This document shows, one piece after another, positions 420 through 63,930 of a stretch of DNA of 64,000 bases (its first letter is position 1; each line of letters begins with the position of its first letter). The stretch comes from Ginglymostoma cirratum (taxonomy: Eukaryota). The stretch is from the NCBI GenBank assembly GCA_024137785.1, contig JAHRHZ010000053.1, positions 5,675,806 through 5,739,805 of the forward strand, read 5' to 3'. The notes below the pieces were generated by a model that was not told the origin of the DNA, did no database searches, and saw nothing but the letters and a program-made list of their open reading frames with translations. Position numbers and translations under genes: made by a program.

Positions 420-830
420 GCCACAGATAAGATTCACTAGAATGGATACAGGGATGAAGGTCATTGGAGAAGCTGGTTCTGTTCCCCTTAGAGAAGGGAA
501 TTTGGTAGAGAATGATTTGATACGGTAGTTCAAAATCATAAGGGATTTGGACAGAGACTTGGGAATAATAAAAGCAAATAATGCAGATGCTAGAAATCCG
601 AAGAAAAGATGTTCAGAAAGTACTGCAAAAACATGGCGGATCTGTGGAGAGAGGAGAAAAACAAAATTAATGTTTTGAGTCCAATATGATGTTCCTGAAA
701 AAAGTCACAAACTAGAGTCAAAATGTTAACTCTGTTTCTCTCTCCACAGATACTGGCATACCTGCTGGGATTCTCCAGCACTTTCTGCAGATAGAGATAA
801 ACTGTTCTCATTGGCAGAAAGCCGAGCTTG
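420..830 (+). mobile_element. Decayed CR1-type LINE 3' fragment, interrupted by a fold-back PLE-derived element
   Basis: Resembles CR1 ORF2 C-terminal DNA (gattcactagaatg...ttggagaagctgg...gatttgata...ttcaaaatcataaggg...ataaactgttctcattggcag). Boundaries approximate. Confidence 0.6.
575..790. mobile_element. Short fold-back PLE-derived element with degenerate hammerhead motif
   Basis: Inverted arms atctgtggagagaggagaaaaac / gtttctctctccacagat around ctgaaaaaagtcac...gtcaaaatgttaac. Same family as 60683-60928. Confidence 0.65.
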
Positions 831-1429
831 TGACAGAATAAGACTTGTATAAATCATAAAGATGTCACTGATCATTTGGCCCTGATACATGACATCACAT
901 TGTAAGAGACAAGATATTAAGCCAGAACAGGGTTTCCTAAAATTAAGGTTAGGGCTGTAAATGAGGTCACAAGCTGAAATTTACAGCCACCAGCTCCAAT
1001 GCACCAATATCCTCCAATGTGCTCTGATTGAGTTAGAACAGATACAGTCCTGCACTATCAGACAGGCTTCCACTGCCTAGCAGCGGCAGCAGCAGCACCC
1101 TCCAGCTTGCTCTCACAGAATTCCCTCCTCAGTCCTCATCAGTCTTTAATCCTCAGAATGGGGTCTGAGTGGGAAATAGTTTGGGACATGCTGGTCTAAA
1201 ATGAACATGTGAAGCGAGAACTCCCAGAAAATATACTAGAGAGCTGAATTCGGGACCTTACAATGTACAGGTGCAAATAAAATGCTGTTACTGCACATGA
1301 TTTGAAGAGCCTTACTTGGAGATAGTGACAAGCAACTTCAGGGACAGTGTGCTTGCAGGCACCCGCAGCTTAAGGTATTCCTGACCAGTATTTGAAGTAC
1401 AGGCAGCAGCATTAGATTGCATTCAAAAT

Positions 1430-1710
1430 GAAGCACAGAAGGAACGGATTTAAGGGAATTGAGATTGAAGTAAGGATGAAATGGCAAAAAACTATTTTTC
1501 AGCTAATGTTAATATTGTGGAATGTGTTGCCTAAAAGCAGGTTCAATCATGACATGCAAGAGTGGAATTGAATTACAGTATTATCTGAAAGAGATTATGC
1601 AGAAGTGAGGGGAGAAAGGTGAAATGAATTGCTTCTACAGACAACTAGGTGGGACATAGCGGGTCAAGAGACATCCTTCTGTGGAATGCCTATTTCATTA
1701 TTACATGACG
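1430..1710 (+). mobile_element. Old CR1 3' end fragment
   Basis: ggatttaagg...tgtggaatgtgttgcct...gcaggttcaat...tccttctgtg resembles other CR1 tails in this window. Confidence 0.5.
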
Positions 1711-1729
1711 TTATTAAGAATGAGACGAG

Positions 1730-2190
1730 AGTGAAATAACATCTCATCTGCTGTGTGGGGACCCTATAGCCCTCAGCATTTAATATCAAGTTCAATAATT
1801 TCAGATCTTGAACACCTCCTTCCAAGTTCTTTATCAGTGCCTTACACCCTAGGCCCTGTCATGGTATGGCTGCTTTTAGCATAGCCAACCCACTTTCACC
1901 TACTCTTTGTTCCCATTTTCTCCTTCCCTAGCTTAGAATGAATGATACTTTGGCTGCCTGAATTTCTTTCCGTTTCTCTGGGATGCATCTCCACCTATCC
2001 ATTCACTATCACCCCCAAGCCCACACCTCCTCCCCCAACCCTTCCCCAGTCTCCTCCAAAATTCCCACCCTCTATCATTGCCTTAAATACCAACCTTCCC
2101 TGGCTACCATCAGTTCTGAAATGGACTCGAAGTGTTAACTCTGCTTTCTCAGAACTGCTGAGTTTCTCCAGCAATTTCTGGTTTTGCGTA
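1730..2190 (+). mobile_element. Old PLE 3' fragment (end of GIY-YIG ORF, C-rich UTR, terminal repeat)
   Basis: catctcatctgctgtgtggggaccctatagccc...aatatcaagttcaataatttcaga reads HLI..GTL.P...NIKFNNFR, like 40550-40620. It is followed by a C-rich tract and gttctgaaatggactcgaagtgttaactctg...tttctccagcaatttctg. Confidence 0.55.
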
Positions 2191-3354
2191 AAATAACTGA
2201 TCTTATTTCATTCTACGTGATCGTGGATAATGGTGTTGACCAGTATGATATTTTTGAAGAATACCTGATTCAAAGCATTAACTCTGCTTCTCTCTCCACA
2301 AATGCTGTCAGACCTGTTGAAATGCTTCAGTATTTTCCTTTTTAAATTATAATACTAAGCTGTTTGTACAAAGTCTGGCAATTCTACGATTGTGGTCACT
2401 TTTCCAATGCACCAGACATGGTCATCACTGGCTAGGCCAGCTCTTGCTTCCCATTACTAATTTTTCTTGAGAAGATATTAAGCCCGTGCTGTTCTTGTGA
2501 TGCAGTAACATGCACAATGCTGTTTGGAAGGGAGTTCCAGGATTTTGATTTAGTGACAGCGAAGGAATGACAAATTCATGGCCAGAATATTTGCTCACCC
2601 AAAGGAAAACAACATGAATGACTCAGTAAGTAAATATCACAAGAAACAAATCATAAAGTATGAAACAATATGGTTCTAAGGCTAGAGGGGAGCTTGGAGG
2701 GGAAGTTGCATGTGGACGTGCTCCCATGGTGTTGAGTTGGATGTCCTCTGCTTGTTGTATGCAGGATATTTCTGGACATTTTTGATCACATTAAAAATAA
2801 GATTATAGGTTATCTTGTAATTAAGTGATAAATTGGAATTAAAGAATGAAGAAGGAATCTCAAGTTCAGTCATAACAAGAACAACAAATATTTTGAGCCA
2901 AATCTCTGAATCATGCACCTTGCAAGCATTTGGGCAATGGATCAGGATTAGCCACTTAACCTCTAGAGTGGGAGGCAATGACATGAGGACAGCATTAAAT
3001 TGTTAATTTAGAGTAGATGACAATTAGATAACCTGGATTTTCACCAAGACTGACAGCTTCCTTATTCTAGCAAAAATAATGGACAAGCCAGGAAATGACA
3101 AATTGCGATCTTGAATGCTACACAACACATTGTCATGGAAGCTGGAGTTAGGCATGGAACTGGATTTATCGATGTGTGGTTCACAGAGGTATTTAAATCA
3201 TCAGTTGCCTCTAATCAAGTGGGAATCTGGCAGCCTTGAAGTGAAAGCTTAAATGCAGAGATTATACCTGGTAAGAGCAGGTCTGAACTTTGTTGATTTC
3301 TTTGAATAGCCAATCTACCCCTTTAGAGCGGCTTCCTTATATAATTCTGATCCT

Positions 3355-3870: not shown

Positions 3871-4069
3871 AGACAATGTGATTTACTTACCAGAAAACCC
3901 TGAGGCGCTGACTTTCACTTTTGTAGCTGTAGTATTTGTATGGTTATTCCTGTTCAAATTATTTGGACGGTCATGAGGGGCCATGGGGTTTGGGTACAGG
4001 TGAGAACCATGGCATGAAAGGTATGAGGTGGAATTTGGTGTGAATGAGGGGCACATGTGGGGCATTGGG

Positions 4070-6337: not shown

Positions 6338-7114
6338 CAAGTGTGGCATTAGAGAAATACATTGTCTATCTCTGACAAAGAGAGAGCAAAGAGAGTATCA
6401 GTGACCTGCGAATTCCAGTGGTGTTCAGCTGCTTATAAGATCTCAAAAAAAAATCAACCATCATAATGCCATTGAAAGGGATGACGGTTAGACTTTCTCT
6501 TGTTGGAGATGTTCATTGGCTGGCCCTTGGGTGTTACAAATGGACAAGCCTGGATGTTGTTGAGGTCTGCTTCAGTGAGGTGTTGAGGATAATGCTAACC
6601 ATTTTCCAATCATCAGTGAACCTCCCCACTCTGACTTTTTGATGGGAGGTTGCCCAGAGGAAATGAGACCAGATTCCTCCCAACATGTGCCTGCTTATCT
6701 GTTCTGAAACTACTAGCTTGGCTGTCTGTCAGCCCCTTTTAATGTACAGGTTTTCCTTTTTCTAAAGATCAAAATGTCTTTTTTTTAAGAAATAAAGTCA
6801 GTCATAACTGGGATGAGATTGAGATTCCTGTCCTGCACATCTCTTACACTAGGAAGTATTGATTGCCAAAACTGCGCTGTTGGTTTGAACTTCCTCAACT
6901 ACTCAAGTCCCAGCCGAACTCCTCATTCACTTGCCTGGCATTTTATCCCTTATCCCCTAACCATAGCACCACACCCACCTGGCACACTACCCTCTTGTCA
7001 ATCCACCTGCTGTCCTACTCACTCTCCCAGCAAGCTAACACTCTTACCTTCTCTTAATAGCTGAGAGAGTGGCTTTGAGATCTTTGAACAGTTTATTTAC
7101 CGAATACAAGCAAT

Positions 7115-7355
7115 GTACGGTGGATGCTGGAAATCTTAAGTAAACATACAGAACACTGGAGGAATTCAGCAGGCCTGGCAGCATCTGTGAAAGGAGAAAT
7201 AGCGAATTAACATTTCGAGTCCAGTGACCATTCGACAGAACTTTGCCAGTATTGAAGTGTTAACTCTACTTTTCTCTCTAGAGATGCTGCCAGAAATGCT
7301 GGAGTTTCTCCATGACTTTCGATCTTACTTTTTTTCGGATGTCCAGCATCCACTG
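7115..7355. mobile_element. Fold-back PLE-derived element with degenerate minus-strand hammerhead
   Basis: Arms ggatgctggaaatc...ctggcagcatctg / agatgctgccag...tccagcatcc. The minus strand reads agttctgtcgaatggtcactggactcgaaatgttaa. Confidence 0.7.
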
Positions 7356-7775
7356 CTCATTTTTTTTTGGTGAACTGATGCCCAGTTGGTCCCAGTTTAT
7401 TTAACAATTATCAAATAGCACTCGGGTGAATGGAGAGATACCTTAATTACACTAGAAAAAATAATCTGAAGACAAGTTTTGTTAGATTGAGTTTGCCCGA
7501 ATTGGAAAAAAATCCAAAGATTCTATTAGTGTTTAACAATTTTGTTACACATGGTTTCAGCTGGTTTTGTTGTAATATAAGGAACTCTCTAGACACTTAA
7601 CTGCTGTTTACGTCTTTTTGAATCAATTCTGCTAAATGCTTTGTCAATTCTTTGTTTACAGGCTGAATTACAAATATAGCTAATGCAAAAATAAGTTAAA
7701 TTTAATCAAAAAATCAAAATTAGTGCATTGATTAGCATAGGACATTGGCATCTTGAAATGTTTCTCATTATTGGT

Positions 7776-7870
7776 GTTCTGATGAAAGATTGCAGGCCTG
7801 AAATGGTAACTGTTTCTTTGTCTGCAATTGCTACCAGGCCTGCTGAGTATTTGTAGCATTTTTTTCTGCT
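7776..7870 (+). mobile_element. Solo PLE terminal-repeat fragment with hammerhead boxes
   Basis: gttCTGATGA aagattgcaggcct GAAA tggtaac (boxes 7779-7785 and 7800-7803), then gctaccaggcctgctgagtattt. Confidence 0.6.
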
Positions 7871-9011
7871 CTGATCTAATTAATTCCTTCCCAGAAATAA
7901 AGGACACAAAAATGATGCCACTGATAGACCTCAAAAAAACTGATCACCAGCTGCAAAATCAACTGGCGCAGCTTCACAACTCAAAAAGATTGTGCCATAA
8001 GGACCATTGTGGGTAATCTCCTTAACAAGGAATGCTTTTTCCAACTTACTGAATAAAGTACCTTATTTTACTTAGGATTTAAGTTTTATTTCTGTCTGAG
8101 GGTCACATTGTACCATTCAGTTTGCTTTCCTGCAAAACCGCAATCCAATGGGCACACATGATGTACAAAATGTAACAGAATGGTCGTAAAGACATCATTT
8201 TCCATCAGGTTCGACACGTGTATCTGTGACTCAGAATTCAGCTCTCAAGCTTGCTTCTCATGTCCACAGTCAATGACAATCCCTAACACTTTGTCCCTCT
8301 TTAATTTATGTCATGGCAAACATTTCTCCCTCAAAACAAAAACACTATGACGAACGAAACATGTGTTGGTGTTTTCCTGCACAAGGAAGTGTTCATTGTA
8401 AAATGCACTGAAACACTGTAAATACTTGGGAAGCTCATGTATAAATTTAAAGGGCTTTATTTTCACTGCCATCCTCCACTGGCACATTTGAAGGTAAGGG
8501 CAGCGCAGAAACGGTGATTAACACACTGTCTTTTCACCAATCCCCAGGATATTCTCGACATGGCATCAGCCAGTTCATTCACCCTTCATCTCTTGAAGCT
8601 CTTAAGTTACCAAATAAATGCAATTAATGCTGCTACCATAATATGGTATGCAGGGGAAAGTAAAAGAAAAGTGGCCATCCCTCTATGTTATCAACTAAAA
8701 GACAGAAAGGGAACAGGATAATTTCATTCGGACAGCAGGGACATTTCATGTGCCAATCTGAGTCATGTGCCCAAATGTTAACGCAATGACTTAGAACCAT
8801 AGAAACACTAAAGTGTGGAAGCGGGCCGCTTAGCACATTGAGTCCATACCAAGCCTCCGAAGAGCAGACAACCCAGATCTAACCCGGTCCAACTCTATTC
8901 CTGTAGCCCATTCCCTGCTGGCTTTGTTAGTCCCTCTTTAACCTTTCAGAGTCTTCCTTGATCAAAAATACTGGACTGCAGGTTCTTCTGCTTGTTCAGT
9001 TGGGCCAAGTG

Positions 9012-9533: not shown

Positions 9534-10031
9534 AGATAACAAGNNNNNNNNNNNNNNNNNNNNNNNNNNNNNNNNNNNNNNNNNNNNNNNNNNNNNNNNN
9601 NNNNNNNNNNNNNNNNNNNNNNNNNNNNNNNNNNNNNNNNNNNNNNNNNNNNNNNNNNNNNNNNNNNNNNNNNNNNNNNNNNNNNNNNNNNNNNNNNNNN
9701 NNNNNNNNNNNNNNNNNNNNNNNNNNNNNNNNNNNNNNNNNNNNNNNNNNNNNNNNNNNNNNNNNNNNNNNNNNNNNNNNNNNNNNNNNNNNNNNNNNNN
9801 NNNNNNNNNNNNNNNNNNNNNNNNNNNNNNNNNNNNNNNNNNNNNNNNNNNNNNNNNNNNNNNNNNNNNNNNNNNNNNNNNNNNNNNNNNNNNNNNNNNN
9901 NNNNNNNNNNNNNNNNNNNNNNNNNNNNNNNNNNNNNNNNNNNATGATGCTGCTTGGCCTGCTGTGTTCATCCAGCTCCACACCTTGTTATCTCGGATTT
10001 CCAGCATCTGCAGTACCTATTATCTCTATAT
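9534..10031 (+). mobile_element. Fold-back PLE-derived element spanning the assembly gap
   Basis: ccgtaatattttaaag is repeated at 9520-9535 and 10032-10047. The left end agataacaag is the reverse complement of cttgttatct in the right end. Confidence 0.8.
9544..9943. other. Assembly gap (400 N)
   Basis: Run of N. Confidence 1.
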
Positions 10032-10309: not shown

Positions 10310-11850
10310 TCGAGATTCATGTCAGAGAAAAAGGCCTTTCAGCCCTCTGAGCCTGTGCTAATAAAAGAAACAACTACTTGATTATTCAAATCCCATTTTC
10401 CAGCACTTGGCCCATGGACCTATGCTTTGGCACCACAAGTGAAATCGTAATATCCCTTAAATACCATGAGGGTTCCTGCCTTGACCACCATTCCAGGCAG
10501 TGAGTTCCAGATCCCCACCACCTTCTGAGTGAAAAGGTTTTTTCTCACATCTCCTCTAAACTTTCTGCTCCTTACCTTGAATCCGTGCCCTCTGTTAATT
10601 GAACCCTCCGTCAAGGTGAAACATTTCTCCTTACCTACTTTATCAATGCTCCTCATAATTTTGTACATCTCAATCATGTCTCCCCTCAATTTCCATTGCA
10701 CTAAGGAAAACAAACCTAGTCTGTCCAATTTCTCTTCATAACTAAAACTCTCCAGCCCAGGCAATACTCCCTTAAATCTCCTGTGCACCCTCTCCAGTTC
10801 CATCACATCCTCCTATAATGTGGATTCCAGAATACACTAGCTGTGGCCTAACCAAAGTCACATATAGTTCCAGCATAACTTCCTTGCTCTTAAACTCTGT
10901 GCCTTGACTAATAAAGGCAAGTATACCACATGAGATAGTAGGAACTGCTGATGCTGGAGTCTGAGATAACAAGGTGAAAAGCTGGATGAACACAGCAGGC
11001 CAGACAGCGTCAGAGGAGCAGGAAAGCTGATGTTTCAGGTCTGGACCCTTCTTCGGAAATGGAGGAGGGGAAGAGGGCTCTGAAATAAACAGAGAGAGGG
11101 AGGGCGATGATAGAAGGTGGATAGAGGAACAGATACTTGCAGAGAAGATGGACAGGTCAAGGAGGCAGGAATGAAGCCAGTACAGGTGAGTGTAGGTAAG
11201 GAGTTGGGATGGGGGCCGGTCAATGAGGAGGAAGGGGCAGGTAGGTGGAGGGAAGACGGGCAGGTCAAGGAGGCAGGGACGAGATGGGTTGGTCTTGGGA
11301 TGAAATCGGGGGTGGGGAGATTTTGAAGCTTGTAAATTCCACCTTCCCCTCCCCCATTTCTGAAGAAGGGTCCAGACCCAAAACATCAGCTTTCCTGCTC
11401 CTCTGCTGCTGCCTGGCCTGTTATGCTCCTCCAGCTCTACAGCTTGTTATCTAAGTATACCACATGCCTTTTTAATCACTTTGTCAACCTGTCCTGACAC
11501 CTTACATGTGTACATGATGTTGACATGCATATCGTGGTCTCTCTGACTCAGTGCTTCCCAGGGTCTTACCACTTATCAAAAATTTATTTGCCTTATTTGT
11601 TCTAACAAAGTGTATCACTATATCTAGATTAAATTCCATTTGCCACTGATCAGCCCATCTGATCAGTCGGCCATTATCCTCCCGTAGTCTAAGTCTACTC
11701 TGTTCATAGTTTCCCACCTCATCAATTTTTGTATCATCTGTGAAGTTATTGATCAATCCTCCTACATTCACATCTAAATTATTTACAAAAACTACAAACA
11801 GCAAGGGCCGCAGCAGTGTTTCCTGAAGAATCCCACCGGACGCAGACATA
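10310..11850 (-). mobile_element. CR1 LINE, 5'-truncated (RT C-terminal half and 3' tail), interrupted at 10933-11452
   Basis: ORFs 11502-11849 (PLLFVVFVNNLD..FTDDTKI..WQMEFN) and 10420-10806 (LERVHRRF..RGHGFKV..FTQKVVGIWNSLP). Confidence 0.9.
10933..11452 (-). mobile_element. Non-coding PLE 3' end plus inverted terminal repeat, two hammerhead motifs on opposite strands, 14-bp TSD
   Basis: TSD aagtataccacatg at 10919-10932 and 11453-11466. 10933-11340 matches the reverse complement of about 40608-41040. 11342-11452 is the inverted copy. Confidence 0.9.
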
Positions 11851-13078: not shown

Positions 13079-13199
13079 AGTTCTGAAGAAGGGGTCCCAA
13101 CTCAAAACATCAGCTTTCCTGTTCCTCTGGTGCTGCCTGACCTACTGGGTTCCTCCAGCTCCACACTTTGACTCCAGCGTCTGCAGTTCTTGCTATCTA
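13079..13199 (+). mobile_element. Solo 121-bp hammerhead-bearing PLE terminal repeat with TSD
   Basis: agttCTGAAGAaggggtcccaactcAAAAcatcagcttt..., flanked by agttggaataaata (13065-13078) and agtaggaataaata (13200-13213). Confidence 0.8.
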
Positions 13200-20008: not shown

Positions 20009-20200
20009 CTGAAAACAACGAATGTTGGAGATCACACTGCGTCAGATAGCATTCACGGAGAGAGAGCAAGCTCTCTGATGAAGTGTCACTTGGGTTTGAA
20101 ATGTTAGTTTGCTCTCTCTCTGAGGATGCTATCTGACTCGCTGTGATGTCCGGTTTTAGTTGTTTTCAGTACAAATTTCAGCATCTGCAGTAATTTGCTC
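20009..20200 (+). mobile_element. Fold-back hammerhead-bearing element, 13-bp TSD, inserted at the 5' side of a Harbinger remnant
   Basis: TSD tttcacgaggata at 19996-20008 and 20201-20213. CTGATGA at 20075-20081, GAAA at 20098-20101. Confidence 0.85.
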
Positions 20201-23227: not shown

Positions 23228-23320
23228 GTCAGAAGTCACACAATACCCCAGTTACAGTCCAACAGGTTTATTTGAAATCTCAAGCTTTCACAGCGCTACT
23301 CCTTCATCAGGTGAAGTGAC
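23228..23320 (-). mobile_element. Short PLE-type terminal repeat with hammerhead motif (cacctgatgaaggag family)
   Basis: The minus strand reads cacCTGATGAaggagtagcgctgtGAAAgcttgagatttcaaataaacctgttggac. Confidence 0.75.
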
Positions 23321-23814
23321 ACCTATGAAGTTGTGACACATCTTTGAAGCAGGTGAGATTTGAACCCAGATCTCTAGCTCAGGAGCACTACCACTGTTCT
23401 GCAAATGAGTAATTTGGTTAATTGGAATTCTGTGTTGTAGGAAGCACTAGGAATTAAGGATATTTTTTTCCTTCACTTCCTTTTACCACTTCCCTTATGC
23501 TTGTATACTTTGCTGAAACTAGCAACTTGGGAAAATAGGTTTCTGGAGCATCCAGTACTGTGAATAGAATTAGATTTGATGCACTGAAGCTCTGTACAAT
23601 TGACCTGCAGTAAGAAGCATGCTCAATAGGTAAATAGCACCATTGGAAAATAGAAGCTAAATACTGCACATACTGAAAATCTGAAATAAAAATTTTTAAA
23701 AAATGGAAAATTCAGCAGGTCAGGTGGCTCCCATGAAGAGAACAATCAGGATGAAACAAATAAAGATACTGAAATATGATCAATCGAAGATGTTAAATTG
23801 TCATATTGTACAAA

Positions 23815-24825: not shown

Positions 24826-24829
24826 TGCT

Positions 24830-25152: not shown

Positions 25153-25259
25153 AAACATGGATATACTGGAAATACTCAGTGGGTAAGACAGAATCTGTGG
25201 AGAGAGAAATAGTTCATGTGTCATGGTTGTTAGCATTTTAATTTAAGATTATTTAGCAC

Positions 25260-26500: not shown

Positions 26501-26559
26501 GAGGCAGGTCCAGAGCCATTCATTCTCACATGCTGAGTGCTTCCAGCATTTTAAGTGCT

Positions 26560-39475: not shown

Positions 39476-39879
39476 ACTGAGAACTGAGTCTTCCCCTAAC
39501 AGATACAGTTAAGGTAGAATTTGAGAGGTTCTTAAGGATTACACAGAGATTGTGTACAAAATCCTCTCAGAATTCAGAGCAGGGACTTGAAGCATTCCAA
39601 TGAAAAGTCAGAGAATGATATGCTCTAGAATATTAACTCTTGTTGCCCTCTGCCTAGACACTGTGTATTTTTAGCATTTTACGTTTACCAGCATCTGCAG
39701 TTGTTTATTTCTCTATCAGAGATTTGAGAATCTTTCCTCCTCTTCTACTTAAGCCTCTGGGATTGCACCATGCAGATATAGACCTTAAAGGAGGTGCAAC
39801 ATGTACATGAGTGAATAAGAAAATGTTAAATGCTGAGGATAATTACTTAGGAGAATCGCATAAAACAGGTATTATATAT

Positions 39880-41040
39880 GATGTCCTCATTTTTCAAGGA
39901 CCGCAACTTCCCCTCCACAGTGGTCGAAAACGCCCTCGAATGTGTCTCTCGCGTTTCCCGCAACTCATCCCTCACAACACTTCCCCACAATAACAACAAA
40001 GACAGAATCCCCCTCATCCTCATGTGCCACCCCACCAACCTCCAGATCCAACGCATCATCCTCCGACACTTTTGCCATCTGCAATCCGACCCCACCACCA
40101 AAGACATTTTTCCCTCCCCGCCCTTATCTGCCTTCCGGAGGGACCACTCTCTCCGTGACTGCCTTGTCCGCTCCACACTCCCCTCCAGCCCCACCACACC
40201 CGGCACTTTTCCCTGCAACCACAGGAAGTGCTACACCTGCCCCCACATCTCCCCCCTCACCCCAATCCCAGGCCCAAGTAAACCTTCCACATCAAACAGA
40301 TGCTCACCTGCACATCTGCTAATGTGGTATACTGTATCCGCTGTTCCCAATGTGGCCTCCTCTACATCAGGGAAACCAAACAGAGGTTTGGAGACCACTT
40401 TGTGGAACACCTATGCTCGGTTCGTTTGTGACAAACGACTGCACCTCCCAGTCGCGAACCATTTCAACTCCCCCTCCTACTCCTTGGACAACGAGTCCAT
40501 CCTGGGCCTCCTCCTGTGCCACAACGATGCCACCCAAAGGTTGCAGGAACAGCACCTCATTTTTCGCTTGGGAACCCTGCAGCCCAATGGTATCAATGTG
40601 GGCTTCAAAAGTTCAAAATCTCCTCACCCCCGGCTGCATCCCAAAACCAGCCCAGCTTGTCCCCGCCTCCCTAACCTGTCCGTCCCTTCTCCCACCTGTC
40701 TACTCCTCCCACGTCAATCCCCACCCCCACCTCCTACCTACCAGCCTCACCACTGCCTCCTTGACCTATCCATCTTCCCTTGACTGACCTACCCCCATCC
40801 TAACTCCCCACCTACACTCACCTTTACCGGCTCCATCCCCGCCTCCTTGACCTGTCTGTCACCTCTCCACCTATCTGCTCCTTTATCCATCTTCCAACAG
40901 CCTCCCCCTCTCTATTTATTTCAGAATCCCCTTCCCCTCCCCCATTTCTGAAGAAGGGTCCAGACCCAAAACGTCAGCTTTCCTGCTCCTCTGATGCTGC
41001 TTGGCCTGCTGTGTTCATCAAGCTCCACACCTTGTTATCT
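39880..41040 (+). mobile_element. 5'-truncated Penelope-like element: thumb/linker, frameshifted GIY-YIG, C-rich UTR, hammerhead terminal repeat
   Basis: FFKDRNFPSTVV..CNHRKCYTC; alternative frame NVVYCIRCSQCGLLYIRETKQRFGDHFVEH; PVANHFN..LQEQHLIFRLGTLQPNGIN. HHR motif at 40948-40975. Probable TSD attatatat at 39871-39879 and 41041-41049. Confidence 0.92.
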
Positions 41041-45060: not shown

Positions 45061-47401
45061 ATTCCACAGGCGCTGCCAGACCTGCTGGGCTTCTATAGCA
45101 GTATCTGTCTTTATCTATCTATCTATCTGGTCCCAGCTCTCAGAAAGGGCTGCCGAAAACACAAATATCAGACTGAGACAAATCAGAATGCATCTGAAGT
45201 CCTGAAACTGACACAGATATTCAATCCACCATACGTTTAGAAGTTCACTGATTAAATAGTTTCATTTATTACACCCGATCTCGAACTGTCAAGTGGCAGG
45301 TATTAATCATGTGCAGATATGGCAGGTGGTAATGACTACAAATAAAACACCCACCTCTGAATTTGTATAGTTTGATTATTGCCAAGTTCCCACCATCTGT
45401 ACGATGTGTGTCACCATTGGACCAGCTGTATAAACAATGTGGGTTAGTGATTTCAAGGATCTAGCTACAAAAGCTCAATGACGGAGGCTGGGTTCTCTGT
45501 GATGACTGGATCACCTCCAGAATTCTAAAAGATTTTCTCCACCATCTATTGCAAAGGTTTCAAACTTAATTTACGTGTTGCGATAATGTGGAACCAATAT
45601 TGTATGAACTGTGTTCAGGAGAGGCTACATGGATACATTGGAGAATGAAGATAGATTGTGTTTTGGGAGAGTAGAATTAGGAAGAACAAAGGTTGAAGTA
45701 AATTTCTAGGTACACCATCCTTCATCCAAACCATGGAAATCCCACTTATACAAAACATACTTTTCCTCACTGATTCTAGGCCTGCTTGACAATGAAATTG
45801 ATAATTAATCAATTTAAATAGGCAAGGGACATAGTCTACGTTTTAGCCAGCTAGAAAATTCCTTTGAACCAATCTGATCACCCTTAAAGCTTAGAAGCAG
45901 TGCTTCTTGACTCCAATTTCTACCTGACAAATGGGCATATACAGTCTAATTTATCATGCCAATTTTCAAGTACTGAACAGAGAGAGTGTTGTATTGTTGA
46001 AGGTGGCAAATTTAAAGATTTCATGAAATTTTCCTGAAAGCAGTGTTCAGGCCAACATTATTCCTTCAGCCAACACCATTCAAAGCAGTAAAACACATCA
46101 TGTGTCAGTGGAGAATTAAGGGACAACCCAGTGCCTGTGCAGCTCAACAGCGCTCAAGAAGCTCAAAACCATTCAAAGTAGTTCACTTCATTGGCACTTC
46201 ATTCGCTGATTTCAATGTCCATTCTCTTCACCAGCAATGCCTAGTGGCAGCAGTATGTGTTATCTACAATATGTAATGCAGTACACACCGACAACAGTGT
46301 CTTCAACATCCAAGATCTCTACCCGAGGAGGACAATAGTGCATGTGGCTGGCACCAGCTGCAAATTCCCTCTAAGACACATACCACCCTGACTTGGAACT
46401 ATTTTGCTGTTCATTCACTGCCATTGTGTTATCTTGGAACTCTCTTGCTAACAGCACTGTAAGTGTTGTCTGAAGTCCTACAGTGGTGCAAGAAAACAAC
46501 TCATCACCAATTTTTGCAGGGTAATTAGTAATTGGCAATAAATTCTGGCTTCGCTGGCAAAGTCCACATCCCTTGTACAAGGCAAGAAAGTGTTGGACTA
46601 GTGTGATATGACTGTATCATTCATTGCATAATGTACTTCAGGCATTTTAAGTCATTGATAGAAATTTGAATGCAAATATTATCACATCAATACTGAAGGA
46701 AAATTTAAAACTTAGCAGGTTTAAAGAAAATCAGCCAAATTGCTGTGGGCTGTTTTTATGTTTGAATTTTCATTACTGAAAGTATTCCAGTCAATGTGCT
46801 CCTTTTCAACTTTTGGGTCTTTATTTAAAAATACATACAAAAAGTATAAGATCAGTTACCCAATGGCCTCTCTTTGCTGGAGAGAATTTAATAAATGATT
46901 TCCAATAATATTAGCTGTCCTTTACCAAGACAATTCACAGATATGATGTCGACCTGAAAAGCTACTGTGCGATTATATTATGGGGAATAATGTAGAGACA
47001 AGACAGATTTCTACACTATGGTAGAATTCAGTTTGGTAAATTTGCCGAGAAATTAAATCTTATCATGAGACATAAAATAGGCAATAAATTTATATACGTG
47101 AACATGCCCAATGACAGAAATGGATCAAGCATCATATTGGATTTTTTTTGTCCCAATAGGTATGCAAGAAACGTATCATCTAAAAATAAGAATCCTCAGA
47201 TGTAAGACCCTTTTTGAGAAATTGTTACGCTTTAGCACCTTATTTGCTATGTTGCAAATGTACCAAAATACCATGGTGCTAACAGCTGTTAGGATCTTGA
47301 AGCAGTATTGTTAAAGGAGCATTTAACCACAGTTCAGGCGCATTATTGTTACTTCCTGATAAAATTCACTATGGTCCCATGAGAAAGAGATAGTTTTTTT
47401 T

Positions 47402-51733: not shown

Positions 51734-51749
51734 ATATAAATGCACAAAC

Positions 51750-54740
51750 ATAAGACATGGGAGCAGAAGTAGAACATTCAACTATTCATTTATGGAATAC
51801 AATCATGGTTGAACTATTTGTGTTTCAAATTCACATTCCTCTTTACCCTCAACTAATACATTTGCCAATAGCCTTTGATTAGATTACCTAACAAGAATGT
51901 ATCTATGTCTGCCTTGAAAATATTAAATGATCCAAGTCCAACATCTTTTGGAGCAAAGAGTTTCAGAGTTGCATGAAAATAAAAGTTCCTCAACTCAGTT
52001 TTAAGAGGATAATTCCTTATCGTTAAAACATTGTCCTTTAGTTTTAGAATGGTTCCCGTGGAAAAAAATCTTTTCCACATCCATCTTGTCCACCATGCCC
52101 TACCTTCAAAATCTTATAAACTAATCGTAACACCAGGGAAATAAAAATCCGGACAACCCATTCTACCCTCAAAAGAAAACTCACTCATTCAAGGTTTCAG
52201 TCTAGTGAACTTCCTGTGAACTGCAACCCTTTTATACACACCCTTATATACAGAGACCAAACTGCACTCAATTTTCAAGATATGGTCACATCAATGCACT
52301 GTTTAACTGGCATGACATCCTTATTTTTATATTCAACTCCTCTCTTAGTAAATGATAACATCCCATTAGACTTCTTGATTACATGTTGACCTGAATGCCA
52401 ACTTCATTCTTCCTTAAGTGAACGCCTTCACATTTTCCTATATTTTACTCCGAGTGCCAGATATTTAGCCGCACAATCAAAAAATATACTTTCCTACCAC
52501 TCTTCGTTGGCATCTATGAATTTAGCTACCACGCCTTCTCTCCCCTCATCTGAGTCATTAATATAGATCTTAAGTGTTGAGTCTCACCAGAGACCTACTG
52601 GAAATCTACTTGTCACATGCTGCCAGTCAGACAATGACCAATTGTGCATAGTCCCTGTTTTTTGCTAGCAAGCTGATCTTCTACCTGTGCTAGCATGTTT
52701 TTTCTGGACTATAATTTTTTTTATTTTCTGTAATTTTTTTTAGTTGGTAACTTTATTGTGTACAACTCTGGTTGCCACACTACCAGAAAGAAGTGGAGTC
52801 ATTGGAGGTGTTACAGAAGCAGTTTACCAGAATGTTGCCTGGTTTGGTCGGTATTGGCTGTGAGGAGAGATTGGACAAACATTGTTTGTTTTCAGTTGAC
52901 CTTGAAGGATGAGAGGTCACTGAACAAAAGTTTATAAAATTATGAGAGCTATGGATAATTGGAGTCTTTTTTTCCAGTGTAGAAAAGTCAATTGCTAGGG
53001 GACATAGGTTTAAGACAAAAAGAGGTAAGTTTAAAGGAGAGATGAGAGGCAAGATTTTATACAGAGTATGGTAAGTGCCTAGAATGTGCTGCCAGATGAG
53101 GGGATGGAAATGGATGCATTGGAATGCTTAAGAGGCATCATGAAAGATATATGAACGGGCAGGGAATAGAGGGTAGGAATATTATAAAAGCCAAATGATT
53201 ATAGCTTAGAAAGGCATCATTTGTTGGCACAGCCTTTTGGGCCAAAAGGCTTGTTTCTTTGCTGTACTGTTCTTTGTTTTCTTTGTTCTTGACAAATGCC
53301 CTTCTGGAAATCCAAGTACAGTAGATCTACAATCGTGCCTTTATCAACAAATAATGTTACTTCTCCAGAAAGCCTCAATAAATTGATTTAACATAATTTC
53401 CATTTGAGAGACCAATTTGCTTCTTCCTGATTACTTTTAGATTTTAAGTATATAGCTATAATTTCCCTAATGATTGATTCCAACACCTTCCCTGTGGCTG
53501 ACAACTTAACTGGCCGAGTGTTTCCTGTAAAATAAAATGAAGAATTGCAGCTGCTAAAGATCTGAAGCAAACAAAAGCAGAAATTGTTGGAGAAACTCTG
53601 CAGGTCTGGCAGCATCTGTGGGGAGAAAACTGAATTAACATTTTAAGTCCTGTGACCCTTCCCCTGAAGAGGGTCAACATTAACTCTGTTTCTTTTATCT
53701 CCACAGAGTTCCTTCAGCAATTTCTGTTTTTGTTTGTCACAGTTTCATAGGGTCAAAGAGCCTTGGAAACAGACCTTTCGGTCCAACCAGCCCACACCAA
53801 CCATGCTCCCAAACTAAATTAGCCCCACTTGCCTGTGCTTGGCCATATCCCTCCAAACCTTTCCTATTTATGAAACTTATCCAAATATTTACTAAACATT
53901 GTCACTGTTCCTGCATCCACCACTTTCTCTGATACTTCATTCCATGCACAAACCACTCTCAGTGTAAAAAAAGTTGCCCATCATGTGTTCTTTAAATCTT
54001 TCTCCTCACAACTTAAAATTATATCCTTTAGTTTTGAACTTCACCATCCTATAGAAAAGACCCATGTCATTCACCTTATCTATGCCCCTCATGATTTTAT
54101 AAACCTCAGTAAGGTCACCCTTTAACTTCCTACATTCCAGTGAAAGAACTCCAGCCTTTTCAGTCAACTTTTATACTTCAATCACTCCAGTTCTGCCAAC
54201 ACCCTAATAAATCTTTTCTGAACCCTCTTCAGTTTCATAATATCCTTCCTATAACAGAATGACCAGAACTGCACACGGTAATCCAGAAGAGTCCTTGCCA
54301 ACGTCTTGCACAACCTCAAAGAGGTGTCCAAACTCGTCCAAACTTACTATCCACACCTCCTCCCCTGCTTCTTGAATAGATGAGTAATATTTTCAACTTT
54401 ACAACCTGATGGAACTTTTACTAAATTGAGGGAATTTGGAAAATTAATACCAATGCATTTCTAGCTCTTTAGCCAGCTCTTTTAAGAAGCCATGATTTTG
54501 CCCAATCATTAAGCCTGTCCACTGCCCTCTGAAACCATTCTACATCGTCCCAGTAGCATACATTCCCACTTTGCTTTATATCATCTAAAACATGGAAATA
54601 TTACTTTCGATCCTCACCTCAGATGGTGTCCAAGTGTTGATCCTTGCAGTACTATACCAGTCAAGCATACCAATGTAAGAATGACCCATTTATTCCTATT
54701 TTTTGCTTTCTGTCTGTTAGCAAATCATTAATTTATGCCA
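51750..54740. mobile_element. Nested CR1 cluster (minus 51750-52740, plus 52760-53290, minus 53290-53530, 53740-54330, 54350-54740)
   Basis: Multiple CR1 RT and tail motifs in both orientations (e.g. RPVKLSATGKVLESII, LKTELRNF). Confidence 0.8.
53535..53737. mobile_element. Fold-back PLE-derived element, hammerhead partly deleted
   Basis: caaacaaaagcagaaattg...ttaacatttt / aacattaactctg...gcaatttctgtttttgtttg, with central tgacccttcccctgaagagggtca. Confidence 0.75.
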
Positions 54741-56235: not shown

Positions 56236-56993
56236 GAGGAGGAATACATCTTCCAAGTGTTCAAGGATAATGGATATCTAAAGAACTGGGGCACGAGATG
56301 CCTACAAGAACAGCATCAGGAAGATTCTACATGCCCCGACACACTCATCACACTACGCTACATCAGGAACACGTCAGAACTCACCACAAGACTTCTACGA
56401 CTGCTGGGCATCAGAGTGGCTCACAAGCCCACATCAACCCTACGACAAGTGCTCACCCGAACTAAAGACCCACTCCCCACCATGGACTGGACCAATGTCA
56501 TCTACAAGATCCCCTACAGAGACTGCGAGAAACACTACATTGGACAAACAGGAAGGAAACTAACAACAAGAGCACATGAACACCAACTGGCAACAAAAAG
56601 ACACGACCGATACTCACTCATCTCAATCCACATGGACAAGGAGAACCACGACTTCGACTGGGACAACACCAAGATCCTGGGACAGGCGAGGCAGAGACAA
56701 GCACGAGAATTTCTGGAAGCATGGCACTCCACGAAGCATGCTATTAATAAACACATTGAACTCAACCCCATATACATTCCACTACAGGGGAAACCCGGAA
56801 GTGAGGCAATCCATCGCAATGGACGCCAGAGTTTAAAAACCAGGCGGGAAAACACACCGACGCTTCATCAGAGGCTGCACTGAGGATGTTACCAAGCATG
56901 GTAACGAAACGTCTGCGGAACACCAAACCAGCTCGGCGAACCAACCAACCTCAACACCCACAACCCAAGCTACAAATCTACTCCAAAACCTTA
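56236..56993 (+). mobile_element. Young 5'-truncated Penelope-like element with open GIY-YIG endonuclease ORF and 15-bp TSD
   Basis: FKDNGY..LRYIRNTSE..NVIYKIPYRDCEKHYIGQTGRKLTTRAHEH..REFLEAWH..AIN. TSD gaaaccttttgtcag at 56221-56235 and 56994-57008. Confidence 0.95.
56875..56918 (+). ncRNA. Minimal type I hammerhead ribozyme, intact core
   Basis: ctgca CTGAGGA t GTTACC aagcat GGTAAC GAAA c GTC tgcgg. Stem I CUGCA/UGCGG, perfect 6-bp stem II, palindromic ACGU stem III. Predicted cleavage after 56913. Confidence 0.85.
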
Positions 56994-57779
56994 GAAACCT
57001 TTTGTCAGTTTATCTTTCCACATTTGCATCCTGTTATGGACTTTCTCTTTTGTACTTCCTGCTGACAAAATTATCGCCGCACCATCACCCACAAACCACT
57101 GGTTTACGAACTCTTACATTTCTATCTTTGTTCAATTCTCATGAAAGTGCAATGCCCTGAAATGTTAACTATTTCCCTCCACAGATTGTCCCTAACCTGC
57201 AGTGTTATTCCCAGCATTCCTTTTTTTTTTGTTTTTATTTCAGATTTCCAGGATCGACAATATTTTGTTTTAACATTAATTTAACACATTGTTTCTTCTG
57301 ATTGCTGCCACTTTGGATGTGACATTCATCTTGGGCGAAGGCAGAAAATAGATGAAATAGCATCAGCCCTCACATTTTACAGTTGCCCAGCGGGTATCAA
57401 TGGCAATCAAGCAATGTACAACAGTGATGAACTCTAATTCATTTTGTGTGATCCCTGACAAAACATATCCCTTTTTGAATCTAACTTTGCTACAAAGAAT
57501 GGGATTAATATAATGCCCAGAAAAAAACATAATAGCAGACTAGCCCAAAAACATGAGAATAAAATTTCCTAGTCTCTTATGTATTGGGCAGAATCTTCTA
57601 ACTTATATAAAGACAGACTTGATATCTCCATGGCCACCATCATTCCCTTTCTGAGAAATCATCTCAGAATTATACGCTCAAGAGGATGAAATTTGAAATT
57701 TGTTTCTCTGCAGTATCTGATTTGCACAATTTTGAATTGAAATATTTACTTGATTATTTGTTTAACAAAGTACCCCGGA

Positions 57780-60429: not shown

Positions 60430-61620
60430 GGAAAGAACCCTTGGGATCTAAGGAAATATGGGTCATTGGATGCAGATTTGGCTATATGTAGAAACAGATG
60501 ATGATAGTCAAGAGGTGTTTGTGTGACTGGAAATCTGTTACCAATGGGGTTCCACAGGGATCAGTGTTGGGCCTTTGTTGCTTATGGTATATAAATAATT
60601 TTGACTCAAATGTAGGAGGGTTGACTAGTAAGTCCGTGGATAATACAAAAACCAGTAGTGTGGTAAATAGTCAGGAGGATAGAAACTAAAACAGAAATTG
60701 CTGAAAAAGCACGGCAGATCTGGCTGCATCTGTGAAGAGAAATCAGAGTTACCATTTTGGGTCCAGTGAACCTTCCTCAGGACAAAAAATTCTGAGGAAG
60801 GCTCACTGGACCCGAAATGTTAACTCTGATTTCTCTTCATAGATGCCGCCAGACCTGCTGAGCTTTCCCAGCAACTGTTTTTGTTTCTGATTTACAGCAC
60901 CCGCAGTTCTTTCAGTTTTTTTATTTACTCAGGAGGATAGCCTTGCCTTAGATTACAGGTGGATACAGGGCCGGTTAGATATGTTGTTCAGTGGCAAATT
61001 GAATTCAAACCAGATAAGTGTGATGTGATGCATTGGTGCAGAACCAATATGGCAAGAGAATACATGGTAGGAACCTGGGAAGGACAAATGATCAGAGGGA
61101 CCCCTGTATGCATGTACACCAGTCCTGTAAAGTGGTAGATTAAAGGGGAACCAAAAGATGTGTTGTTTTTGAATTTCCAGAAGGCACTGGAAAAGGTACT
61201 TCACAAAAGCATGCCATAAGATAAGAGCCCTTAGTATTGTAGGTAGTTTATTGGTGTGAAGAGGGAATTGGCTAATGGGCAAGAAGCAGCGAGTGGGGAT
61301 AAGAGTTTTTTTTTTATCAGGTTGGCAGCCCAGCAACCAGTGGGGTCCACAGGATTAGTGCTGGGACTGCAACTGTTTACAAGATATTTATCAATGACAA
61401 GGAGGAAGGAAGCGAATGTACTGTTGCCAAATTTACAGGAGATACAAAAATAGGCAGAAAGGCAAGTTACAAGAGGGATACAAACAGTTTAGAGAGAGAT
61501 ATTGATAGGCTGAGTAAATGGGCAAAAAGTTGGCAAATGGAGTACAATGTGGAAAAGTTGTTCATTATGGAACAGAGAACCAAAGAACAGAATATTATTC
61601 AAATGAAGAAAGCTGCATCC
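60430..61620 (+). mobile_element. Two CR1 RT fragments
   Basis: [16 protein letters not shown]; STGLVLGLQLF; WAKSWQMEYNV. Confidence 0.8.
60683..60928. mobile_element. Fold-back element with two back-to-back hammerhead motifs, 12-bp TSD
   Basis: TSD tcaggaggatag at 60671-60682 and 60929-60940. Plus-strand HHR at 60792-60821, minus-strand HHR at 60780-60751. Confidence 0.9.
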
Positions 61621-61625
61621 ACAAA

Positions 61626-61939
61626 TCATTAGAATTCCTACAGTGTGGAAACAGGCCCTTTGGCCCAACAAGTCCACACTGACCCTTGGAGCATCCCACC
61701 CAGACCCATCCCCCTATAACCCACACACCCCTGAACACTATGGGCAATTTAGAATGGCCAATCCACCTAGCCTGCATATCTTTGGACCATGGGAGGAAAC
61801 CGGAGCACCCAGAGGAAACCCCCACAGACACGGGAAGAATGTGCAAACTCCACACAGACAGTCACCTGAGGCTGGAATTGAACCCAGGTCCCTGGCACTG
61901 TGAAGCTGTAGTGCTCACCACTGAGACAGCATGCCACCC
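61626..61939 (-). mobile_element. HE1/V-SINE-type SINE, full length, inserted in CR1
   Basis: Reverse complement of the 24830-25152 type. B box appears as ggaattgaaccc on the plus strand. Confidence 0.9.
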
Positions 61940-62029
61940 TATCACAAAGGGACTCAAAGGGATTGAGTGTATGAAGAACGAAGCTAACGCAGAGGTACAA
62001 CAATGTAATCAAAGAACAAGGAAAATTAC

Positions 62030-63930
62030 AACACAGGAGCAGGCTCTTCGATGCTTTTCTAAACTATAAACCTTTTTCTCTACACAATCCAGTACCCTGT
62101 GTTCCCTGCTGATATATATGTCTTTCACGATGCCTCTGAAAGGTTGCTTTTGCATCTGCCTCCATGACCTCCTCTGGCAGGGCATTCCAGGCACTTTCTA
62201 ATCTGTGTATAAAAAAACGTTCTTTTCACACTTCCTTTAAACTTACCTCCCTTTACCTTAAACCCATGTCTCCGAGTAATTGACTTTTCTACCCTGGGAG
62301 AAAGATGTTGACTGTCCATTCTATCCATGCCTCTCATAACTTTGTAAACTTCTTTCAAGCGGCCCCTCGTTCTTTGATGCTCAACTGAAAACAAATCAAG
62401 TTTGTCCAATCCTGAAAGCTAATATCCTCCAAACCAGCTAAAATGTTTCTGTACTTTCTCCAAAGCCTCCTTACCGTTCTGGTAGTTTGGTGACTAGAGC
62501 TGTACAAAATATTCCAAATGTAGCCTACGCTCTAAATAGCTGCAATATGCTATTTTTTATACTTTATGCCCTGACAGATGAAGGCAAACATGCCATATGC
62601 CTTCTTGACCACCTTATCCACTTGTGTTGCCACTTTCAGGGAAATGCAGACCTGTACATTTAGCTCCCTCTGTTTGTTCATACAGGTTTCTGTCAATTAT
62701 TGTGTACTTCCCTCTTGCATTAATGTTGCAAAATATATTGCCTCTCATTTGTTCAGATTAAACTCCATCTGCCATTCCTCACCCAAGTCTCCAACCTGTC
62801 TATATCCTGCTATATCCCCCAGCAATCCTCCTCACTATCCACAACTCCTCAATCTTTGTGTCACCTGCAAAGTTACTAATCAGGCCACCTACATTCTCTT
62901 CCACTGTGACCTGTGACTAAAAAGGATACACAGATTTTCTCACCTGCCTCCCTCATCATTTTAGAATAGATCCCATCAGGTTCTCAGGACTTGTCTATGT
63001 TAATGCTTTTCAAAACACCCACCATCTCCCTTTTTTGGTATTGACTTGCCTTAGAATATCAACATGACCCTCCCAAGACTCATTAACCACCATGTCTTTC
63101 TCCATTGTGAAGACCAATGCAAAGTGTTCGTTAAGGACTTCAACCACTTCCTCCAGCTCTATGCATAAATTCCCTCCTTTGTCTTTGAGTGGGCCTATCC
63201 TTTCCTGAGCTACCCTCCTGCGCTTTATACATGTATAAAACACCGTGGAAATTTCCTTAGATAACAAGGTGTAGAGCTGGATGAACACAGCAGGCCACTT
63301 TCTGAAGAAGGGTCTAGGCCCGTAACGTCAGCCTTCCTGCTCCTCTGATGCTGCTTGGCCTACTGTGTTCATCCAGCTCTACACCTTGTTATCTCAGATT
63401 CTCCAGCATCTGCAGTTCCTACTAACTCTGGGAATTTCCCTAATCCTGTTCGCCAAGGACATTTTCTGGCCCCTTTTAGCCCTCCTAACTCTTTGTTTGA
63501 GTTCTTTCCTTCTATCTCCTTTTACATTTTGACTAAGCTGTCTTGTCAATTCCTCATGCAAGGTTCCTGAATCTTGCCATCCTCATCCTTTATTTGCATG
63601 GGAACATGCTGGTCCTGAACTCTAATCAACTGGTCTTTAAAAGATTCCCCCAGGCTAGATGTGGTTTTATTTGCAAACAGCCCCCACAATCTATATTCCC
63701 ATTTCCTGCCTAATATGGTGGTAGTAATCTTTCCCTCAGTTTAGTACACTCACTCAAGGATGACTCATATCCTTATCTATAAGTAACTTAAAGCTTACAG
63801 AAATAGGTCACTGCTCCCGAAATGCTCTGCCACTCGATAACCTGCCCTGGCTCATTCCCCAACACCAGGTCTACTATGGCCCTTCTTTATGGGGCTCTTT
63901 ACATATTGTTTCAAAAAGCTGTCCTGGGCA
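62030..63930 (-). mobile_element. CR1 LINE with internal deletions (endonuclease/linker pieces, RT pieces, 3' tail)
   Basis: RIGPLKDKGGNLC..EVLNEHFALVFT; DKLDLFSVE..RGRLKEVYKVMRGMDR. Confidence 0.85.
63259..63428 (+). mobile_element. Short fold-back hammerhead-bearing PLE terminal repeat
   Basis: A 39-bp inverted arm agataacaaggtgtagagctggatgaacacagcaggcca, then ttCTGAAGAagggtctaggcccGTAAcGTC. Imperfect TSD tggaaatttcctta / tgggaatttcccta. Confidence 0.85.

What the first reader, a model, noticed from the sequence alone, without database searches (positions are those of the whole stretch)
575..63428. Dispersed population of short, non-coding, hammerhead-carrying mobile units with their own TSDs
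Seen: more than a dozen units of 120-520 bp carry an HHR-like motif and no ORF. Several have clear TSDs: 10933-11452 (14 bp), 13079-13199 (14 bp, 1 mismatch), 20009-20200 (13 bp), 60683-60928 (12 bp), 63259-63428 (about 14 bp, 2 mismatches) and 9534-10031 (16 bp). Their sequence matches the terminal repeats of coding PLE remnants in the same window (e.g. 40930-41040). Inference: they are either extreme 5'-truncated PLE insertions or a non-autonomous, retrozyme-like ribozyme retroelement class mobilised by PLE enzymes. At this density they would be very numerous genome-wide.
Basis: partly seen in the sequence, partly recalled or inferred. Interest (0 to 1): 0.75.

Follow-up and report, generated by a model that had tools for sequence, protein, structure and literature searches.

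The report
Stub insertions of shark Penelope retrotransposons
The short repeats are stub-sized, often mirror-image insertions of the ribozyme-bearing end of Penelope-like retrotransposons, a known pattern, but many start at one fixed position, likely because copying begins inside the element's RNA and stops at a preferred point.

Summary
Real, and mostly ordinary. The window (likely shark DNA) holds 24 Penelope-like element (PLE) loci; 22 are non-coding. All six named TSDs are confirmed. Ten loci are head-to-head inverted pairs, seven with the ~30-nt 'tail' on one arm only: the published PLE insertion signature. Only family A matches a coding remnant here. Hammerhead motifs are enriched (10 against 0.5 shuffled), but only 3 keep an intact core. 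The units are not retrozymes: no tandem arrays, and most ends are not at the cleavage site. Centres differ at every locus, and one 25-nt insert has no hammerhead at all. Yet the 5' end is not random: in contigs of four public runs of relatives, family A starts sharply 3-4 nt before the hammerhead's CUGA box (633 to about 2,450 contigs per DNA run), against varied flanks. Best reading: PLE reverse transcriptase starts inside the RNA and stops at a preferred point, and each hairpin is built anew. A self-propagating ~96-nt family is not excluded. The scan reported such fold-back stubs before in two other shark windows; I did not find the fixed start in those notes or in the papers searched.

The parts
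39880..41039 (+). Family A coding remnant: 5'-truncated PLE (region after the RT, frameshifted GIY-YIG-like endonuclease, 3' region, hammerhead at 40948-40975), no tail, 10-bp TSD
   Evidence: 57.5% identity to RT-bearing P0014; motif by eye; TSD p 0.0007; homology starts near 39880
40945..41040 (+). The recurrent ~96-nt core of family A: from 3 nt before CUGA to the tail-less 3' end
   Evidence: loose ends at 40944/40945 and 41039/41040 in four runs
56236..56993 (+). Second coding PLE remnant (family G) with intact minimal hammerhead at 56880-56913 and 15-bp TSD
9534..10031 (.). Family A unit; readable ends indicate a head-to-head pair, tail on the right; 16-bp TSD; interior unread
10933..11452 (.). 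Family A head-to-head pair: left arm with tail starts at -353, right arm without tail starts at -18; 14-bp TSD
13079..13199 (+). Family A single arm starting at -4, with tail; 14-bp TSD (1 mismatch)
63260..63428 (.). Family A head-to-head pair: left arm without tail starts at +54, right arm with tail starts at -3; 14-bp TSD (2 mismatches)
30958..30982 (+). 25-nt family A 3'-end insert with no hammerhead, 11-bp TSD (1 mismatch), nested in the family D unit
   Evidence: (p 0.003)
60683..60928 (.). Type B head-to-head pair; both arms start at CUGA, short A-run between; tail on the right; hammerhead core intact at 60792; 12-15-bp TSD
20009..20200 (.). Type C head-to-head pair; left arm starts at the predicted cleavage site, right arm at CUGA with tail; 13-bp TSD
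572..787 (.). Old type B head-to-head pair, tail on the left, no clear TSD
7112..7361 (.). Old type B head-to-head pair with a tail on both arms, no clear TSD
53530..53740 (.). Type B head-to-head pair, tail on the left, deletions in the right arm, no clear TSD
35895..36015 (.). Decayed type B head-to-head pair
2105..2190 (+). Decayed type B arm
2248..2345 (+). Decayed type B arm starting at the CUGA box
7776..7872 (+). Type B arm starting at -3
23658..23742 (-). Decayed type B arm with tail, hammerhead absent
25161..25223 (-). Decayed type B arm, hammerhead absent
27146..27252 (-). Type B arm starting at -3, no tail
39615..39715 (+). Decayed type B arm with tail, hammerhead absent, possible 7-bp TSD
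   Evidence: p 0.025; E 0.018
45062..45114 (+). Short type B arm, hammerhead absent
57135..57270 (+). Type B arm starting at -3, with tail
23230..23326 (-). Family D single arm with intact hammerhead core (23282-23310), 8-bp TSD
30457..31022 (.). Family D head-to-head pair whose arms reach about 60 nt upstream of the hammerhead; no clear TSD

Best explanation
The units are short, often head-to-head, TSD-flanked insertions of the hammerhead-bearing end of several Penelope-like elements, likely made when the element's enzyme starts reverse transcription inside its RNA and stops at a preferred point just before the hammerhead. Shown: PLE sequence origin for family A, TSDs of 8-16 bp, two alternative 3' ends about 30 nt apart (with and without tail), different centres at each locus, and a recurrent 5' start at -3/-4 from CUGA. 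Inferred from the anole PLE study: the endonuclease nicks both target strands; synthesis starts at one of two internal RNA sites, here 93 or about 123 nt after CUGA. Inferred, untested: position -3/-4 is an RNA 5' end or hard stop, so the usual product is a 96-nt or ~126-nt cDNA; a second arm is made in the same event (fold-back of the first cDNA, or priming from the second nick) and joined at a variable point. The stubs are likely dead on arrival, because they end at or before the tail and most have lost the ribozyme core.
For: Tail on one arm only in 7 of 10 head-to-head loci, as described for PLEs (PMC3846280 passages; PMC8557442 Fig. 2 legend). Family A arms start at -1068, -353, -18, -4, -3, +54 and +68 (7 readable arms), including a 25-nt insert with TSD and no hammerhead. 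Both coding remnants carry the same kind of TSD; loose ends with long, low-agreement (0.34-0.46) flanks at 40945 in 633 of 129,890 laid contigs (X1), 1,699 plus 753 at 40944 of 235,892 (X13), 109 of 17,534 (X15), 31+7+8 of 2,310 (X23); at the 3' end 41040: 1,108; 4,266 plus 1,148; 262; 55. The listed strand-change joints pair -3/-4 with different partners (+30/+31, +58), and 622 further joints of all kinds are not shown. Head-to-tail joints 41040/41041 to 40945 (5 contigs in X1, 18 in X13) fit a template jump at that point. 11 of 19 type B arms begin within about 4 nt before CUGA and none shares upstream sequence (by eye). PMC11167929: internal initiation at two sites flanking the tail, both strands cleaved and extended, ribozyme cleavage not needed, and the minimal RNA extends 3' of the start sites.
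Against: A fixed 5' end is also what a SINE-like non-autonomous family shows. One inversion junction recurs (40944/40945 to 40978/40979: 12 contigs in X1, 22 in X13, 1 in X15). The 7112 unit has a tail on both arms, and at 575 and 53530 the tail-less arm is about 5 nt longer, which a simple fold-back model does not predict. The 10933 arms are no more alike to each other (86%) than to the 40945 copy (89-90%). In D. virilis Penelope the transcription start lies about 120 nt upstream of the intron end that maps to helix I (PMC2377424; PMC4209133), so a start site at -3 is not the known arrangement. The consensus letter next to 40945 is T, not the G that a copied cap can leave (recalled from LINE work). 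Types B and C have no coding partner in the window. The runs are relatives, held as contigs, and its counts are incomplete.
Confidence: 0.62

Rival explanations
1. The ~96/126-nt unit is a non-autonomous, SINE-like PLE derivative: some stub copies (or short masters) are transcribed from the hammerhead onward and re-copied in trans by PLE enzyme, with the inverted arm added at each insertion.
For: Sharp 5' end in all four runs; head-to-tail dimers of the 96-nt unit; one recurring inversion junction. Type B shared sequence starts at CUGA in 11 of 19 arms with no coding partner in the window. pLTR sequences act in trans (PMC3846280); putative non-autonomous PLEs exist in Chlamydomonas (PMC8557442).
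Against: No sense-strand Pol III A or B box in six arms tested with recalled patterns, no tRNA. Family A stubs are 85-92% alike to each other and to the coding copy, with no sign of a separate lineage in 4 copies. Three of 7 family A arms run upstream into the parent's 3' region. In the anole PLE the RNA needs sequence beyond the start sites, which stubs lack.
Confidence: 0.25
2. Plain random 5' truncation of PLE insertions, the apparent hot spot being an alignment effect of the C-rich run upstream or of many subfamilies with different upstream regions.
For: Wide spread of arm starts in the window. 3,949 loose-end rows were not shown, so the background is unknown.
Against: The 40945 loose ends are long (median at the 255 cap) and A/T-rich with agreement about 0.35, unlike the short, C-rich, 0.62-0.66-agreement ends at 40908 that do mark subfamily variants. 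In the window two arms start at -3/-4 directly against a TSD or the opposite arm.
Confidence: 0.08
3. Non-LTR retrozymes: ribozyme-processed, circular-RNA-forming tandem repeats.
For: Type-I hammerhead motifs; retrozymes are proposed PLE derivatives and were reported in one chondrichthyan (10.64898/2026.07.22.740005); rare head-to-tail joints.
Against: No tandem array of any unit (3 unrelated 18-19-bp repeats). Paired hammerheads lie on opposite strands, so no unit-length RNA can be cut out. Ends sit at -3/-4 and +93/+123, not at the cleavage site (+28). 7 of 10 descriptor hits have a core mismatch.
Confidence: 0.03
4. MITEs (non-autonomous DNA transposons with terminal inverted repeats).
For: Strong hairpins (z -5.6 to -22.6 for 6 of 7 units folded).
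Against: TSD length varies from 8 to 16 bp, the ends are unequal (tail), arms are the 3' end of an RT-encoding element, centres vary, and single arms also carry TSDs.
Confidence: 0.02

Closest known systems
Endonuclease-bearing Penelope-like element insertions with inverted pLTR, tail and TSD (PMC3846280; PMC8557442; PMC2377424)
   Same: 5' truncation, head-to-head inverted copy, ~30-nt tail usually on one end, TSD, palindromes at the inverted junction.
   Different: Here most insertions are reduced to the terminal 25-400 nt, cover about 6% of the window, and share a preferred 5' start; the passages read do not describe such a start.
Poseidon of Anolis carolinensis, PAc (PMC11167929)
   Same: Two 3' ends bracketing a tail about 95-125 nt downstream of a hammerhead; AT-rich targets.
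   Different: Mechanism shown in vitro for PAc, only inferred here. Family A has a CxxC-rich stretch before the endonuclease motif, which I recall as Neptune-like (no tree built).
Minimal hammerheads of metazoan PLEs (PMC4209133)
   Same: Short helix I, extra base before helix II, palindromic core without helix III; mostly single dispersed motifs, some as opposite-strand pairs 100-700 bp apart, read there as truncated PLEs.
   Different: Sharks are not named in the sections read; most copies here have decayed cores.
Non-LTR retrozymes (PMC7229834; 10.64898/2026.07.22.740005)
   Same: Short, non-coding, type-I hammerhead, PLE-related.
   Different: Retrozymes are same-strand tandem repeats, in PMC7229834 with canonical hammerheads and circular RNAs; these units are single or head-to-head.

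Membership tests
EN+ Penelope-like element insertions | Derived from an element with PLE-type RT and GIY-YIG endonuclease | tested here: met
   Family A: remnant matches RT-bearing P0014; endonuclease motif by eye only, no Pfam GIY-YIG hit on the window pieces. Family G: homologues carry RVT_1 and weak GIY-YIG hits. Types B and C are linked only by profile similarity to A.
EN+ Penelope-like element insertions | Minimal type-I hammerhead in the terminal repeat | tested here: met
   10 hits against 0.5 shuffled; 3 intact
EN+ Penelope-like element insertions | Inverted 5'-truncated copy and optional 30-40-nt tail | tested here: met
   10 of 24 loci head-to-head; tail one-sided in 7, two-sided in 1, unclear in 2
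EN+ Penelope-like element insertions | Target-site duplication of variable length | tested here: met
   11 of 24 loci, 7-16 bp, the 7-bp case weak
EN+ Penelope-like element insertions | Clade placement by RT phylogeny (Neptune, Poseidon) | not tested
   The window copies lack the RT core; no tree was built
Non-LTR retrozymes | Head-to-tail tandem units, each with a complete hammerhead | tested here: not met
   No array in the window; only rare dimer joints in relatives
Non-LTR retrozymes | Self-cleaved monomeric and circular RNAs | not testable with these tools
   Only contigs were laid; they cannot show RNA ends or circles
Non-autonomous (SINE-like) PLE family | Fixed 5' end across loci | tested here: met
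   40944/40945 in four runs
Non-autonomous (SINE-like) PLE family | Own lineage with diagnostic changes absent from coding copies | tested here: inconclusive
   Four family A cores 85-92% alike, no separation; too few copies, no genome held
Non-autonomous (SINE-like) PLE family | Shared internal structure (same centre) at many loci | tested here: inconclusive
   All readable centres differ in the window; one junction recurs in 12 and 22 contigs of two runs
MITE | Fixed-length TSD and equal terminal inverted repeats | tested here: not met
   TSD 8-16 bp; unequal ends

The most novel reading that the evidence does not exclude
A ~96-nt unit that begins exactly at the hammerhead's first helix is a self-propagating, promoter-carrying mini-PLE (a ribozyme-headed SINE equivalent), amplified in very large numbers across sharks and rebuilt into a different hairpin at each insertion; its fixed start marks an unrecognised processing or transcription-start site in the PLE cycle.
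Probability: 0.25. Interest if true: 0.6.

Novelty: new member of a known kind. Interest (0 to 1): 0.33.

Why it matters
How PLEs form their inverted repeats and what their hammerhead does are still open (PMC11167929 found cleavage dispensable in vitro). Shark genomes appear to hold very many minimal insertions with readable TSD, tail, arm starts and centre, which is a ready-made data set for choosing between fold-back and two-nick models and for explaining the stop at helix I. Practically, these stubs cover about 6% of this window, form strong hairpins that mimic microRNA precursors or MITEs, and are easily mis-annotated. The architecture itself is known, so the surprise is modest.

Tried and rejected
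No genome is held for the window, so the genome-wide BLAST could not be run. Motif scans found 0 matches in viral contigs and metagenome contigs; the family G protein found no locus in viral contigs. Rfam: no hammerhead; the microRNA hits are hairpin noise. A looser hammerhead scan was barely above chance (31 against 17.1) and was replaced by the helix-aware one. No RNA holder was listed on record; the two 'RNA?' runs laid are guesses held as contigs, so they say nothing on expression, ends or circles. Summed contig depth rises over 40944-41031, but the tool states it is no copy number, so it is not used. The type B HMM was trained on arms trimmed at CUGA, so its start positions are circular and not used for the 5'-start count. 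Free folding recovers the hammerhead helices only for family G. A splice acceptor at -3/-4, as in D. virilis, was considered: family A has no AG there in the three copies with upstream sequence, and a spliced leader would give one shared flank. Isolated hammerhead-like motifs at 17200, about 26580 and 41838 were not counted as units. Pfam found no host exon among 109 of 109 stop-free frames of 80 aa or more (4 hits: three RVT_1, one ALKBH8_N). A BLASTP with a wrong frame gave nothing. Paper searches: Penelope+hammerhead+shark, 4 papers, none on this by title; Penelope+hairpin+palindrom+Neptune, 0; Penelope+hammerhead+'solo pLTR', 0. Repbase and Dfam were not available. Supplementary figures of PMC11167929 (S1, S2) and the preprint's tables could not be seen and may show end distributions.
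Full report
Setting. The window is repeat-rich vertebrate DNA with LINE-type RT fragments and no Pfam-detectable host exon. The best named homologues of its two PLE remnants are from Chiloscyllium punctatum and Stegostoma tigrinum, so it is likely a shark. No genome is held. Offsets below count from the C of the hammerhead's CUGA box (window 40948 for family A); predicted cleavage is after +27.

Observation. All six named TSDs stand out from random intervals, the 63259 one least. Self-BLAST, alignment and profile searches give 24 loci: 6 of family A (one coding), 14 of a loose type B, 1 of type C, 2 of family D and one coding remnant G. A, B and C are related over the hammerhead-to-tail stretch. 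The loci cover 5,968 of 64,000 bases, about 4,050 without the two coding remnants. Hammerhead-like motifs are enriched, 10 against 0.5 shuffled, but only 56880, 60792 and 23282 keep an unchanged core; the others carry changes, many of CpG-decay type.

Anatomy. Ten loci are two arms joined head-to-head with their 3' ends outward (for 9534 this rests on the two readable ends). Arms end at one of two places about 30 nt apart. The extension is on one arm only in 7 of 10, on both in 7112, and unclear in 2. This is the 'tail' and inverted pLTR described for PLEs (PMC3846280, passages and abstract; PMC8557442, passages; PMC8969392, passages). PMC4209133 (parts 1-2 of 4) already notes that most minimal hammerheads are single motifs of truncated PLEs and that some are opposite-strand pairs 100-700 bp apart. 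Family A is the 3' end of the remnant at 39880-41039, which matches an RT-bearing protein at 57.5% and shows a GIY-YIG-like motif by eye (not reached by Pfam).

Truncation or family? Within the window no two readable centres are the same, family A arms start at -1068, -353, -18, -4, -3, +54 and +68, and the 25-nt insert has no hammerhead. This speaks for insertions built one by one. But starts are not random. Eleven of 19 type B arms begin within about 4 nt before CUGA, 2 are ambiguous, 6 begin further downstream, and none shares upstream sequence (by eye). To test this outside the window I laid contigs of four public runs of relatives (best share of words 0.26) on 39800-41100 at 80% likeness. 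Among the 24 loose-end rows shown, those with long, low-agreement flanks lie at two places: the 3' end (41039/41040; one small row at 41026) and 40944-40946. Counts at the 5' place against the 3' place are 633 to 1,108 (X1), 2,452 to 5,414 (X13), 109 to 262 (X15) and 46 to 55 (X23). The tool warns that counts are incomplete for X1 and X13, and 3,949 rows are not shown. The listed strand-change joints all use 40944/40945 on one side, with +30/+31 (12, 22 and 1 contigs) or +58 (5 contigs) on the other; head-to-tail joints return to 40945 (5 and 18 contigs). So one arm has a preferred start, while what is joined to it varies. The +30/+31 partner lies 2-3 nt from the predicted cleavage site, and the left arm of 20009 starts at that site, a weak hint that either cleavage or helix I pairing shapes some centres.

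Mechanism. PMC11167929 (parts 1-2 of 4; supplement text search empty) shows for an anole PLE that reverse transcription starts inside the RNA at two sites that bracket the tail, that both target strands are cut and extended, that ribozyme cleavage is not needed, and that the minimal RNA extends 3' of the start sites. Carried over, an enzyme that starts 93 or about 123 nt after CUGA and meets an RNA end or hard stop at -3/-4 would yield the 96-nt and ~126-nt stubs; read-through RNA gives the longer arms; early failure gives the shorter ones. The second arm could come from fold-back of the first cDNA or from the second nick. The tailed arm is the longer one in 3 of 3 one-tailed hairpins with clearly unequal arms (10933, 20009, 63260), and the 60683 arms are closer to each other (85%) than to other B copies (65-77%), which suits fold-back; 7112, 575, 53530 and the 10933 identities do not. 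What fixes -3/-4 is unexplained. A transcription start there differs from D. virilis Penelope, where the start lies 46 nt before a 75-nt intron whose end maps to helix I (PMC2377424, passages). An endonuclease nick is another option: PAc prefers ATT, and the coding copy reads ATT at -4 to -2 (inference only).

Comparison. The units work like, and by four tested features belong to, PLE insertions. They fail the tandem criterion for non-LTR retrozymes (PMC7229834, passages; 10.64898/2026.07.22.740005, parts 1-3 of 5) and the MITE criteria. A non-autonomous family meets the fixed-end test but the lineage test is inconclusive. Expanded PLEs in whale shark are on record (10.1101/443036, passages); PMC4350176 (passages) added nothing specific. 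Nine paper searches showed no description of the fixed start; Repbase and Dfam were not searchable, and most subscription papers are missing from the library. Two earlier notes of this scan give the same general reading for other shark windows; they are unchecked notes, not support. One gave me the lead to PMC3846280 and the phrase 'built anew'. A words look-up for the fixed start found no note.

Verdict. Real feature, known class, one new and testable detail. Interest 0.33.

Noticed in passing
window 8784-9277: A member of the most frequent repeat family of the window (also near 18803, 24406, 24832, 28952, 32863, 58168, 61624) has 126-nt inverted ends, 87% complementary. It looks like a tRNA-headed shark SINE (recalled, untested) and is not PLE-derived by the searches run.
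   Followed up: no
window 41815-41838 (minus), 17200-17234, about 26550-26615 (minus): Isolated hammerhead-like motifs with no second copy in the window; 41838 has a perfect 4-bp helix I. Possibly stubs of further PLE families.
   Followed up: partly
window 30958-30982: A PLE stub inserted into another PLE stub (family A into family D), with its own TSD.
   Followed up: yes
tails of families A, B and C, e.g. 63395-63428, 60889-60928, 20172-20200: The tail sequence is more conserved between families than the rest of the arm and can form a small stem-loop; candidate recognition site for the enzyme.
   Followed up: partly
window 22896-22938 and 23601-23643: 43-nt inverted arms, 93% complementary, 662 nt apart, enclosing the family D arm; possibly the ends of a DNA transposon.
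   Followed up: no
window 42361-43257 (minus): Remnant of another RT element with an ALKBH8_N hit; similar PLE pieces appear inside annotated host proteins such as P0003 and P0012, probably gene-model artefacts.
   Followed up: no
window 60726-60846: The palindrome scores against several microRNA precursor models below gathering score: a likely source of false microRNA calls in sharks.
   Followed up: partly
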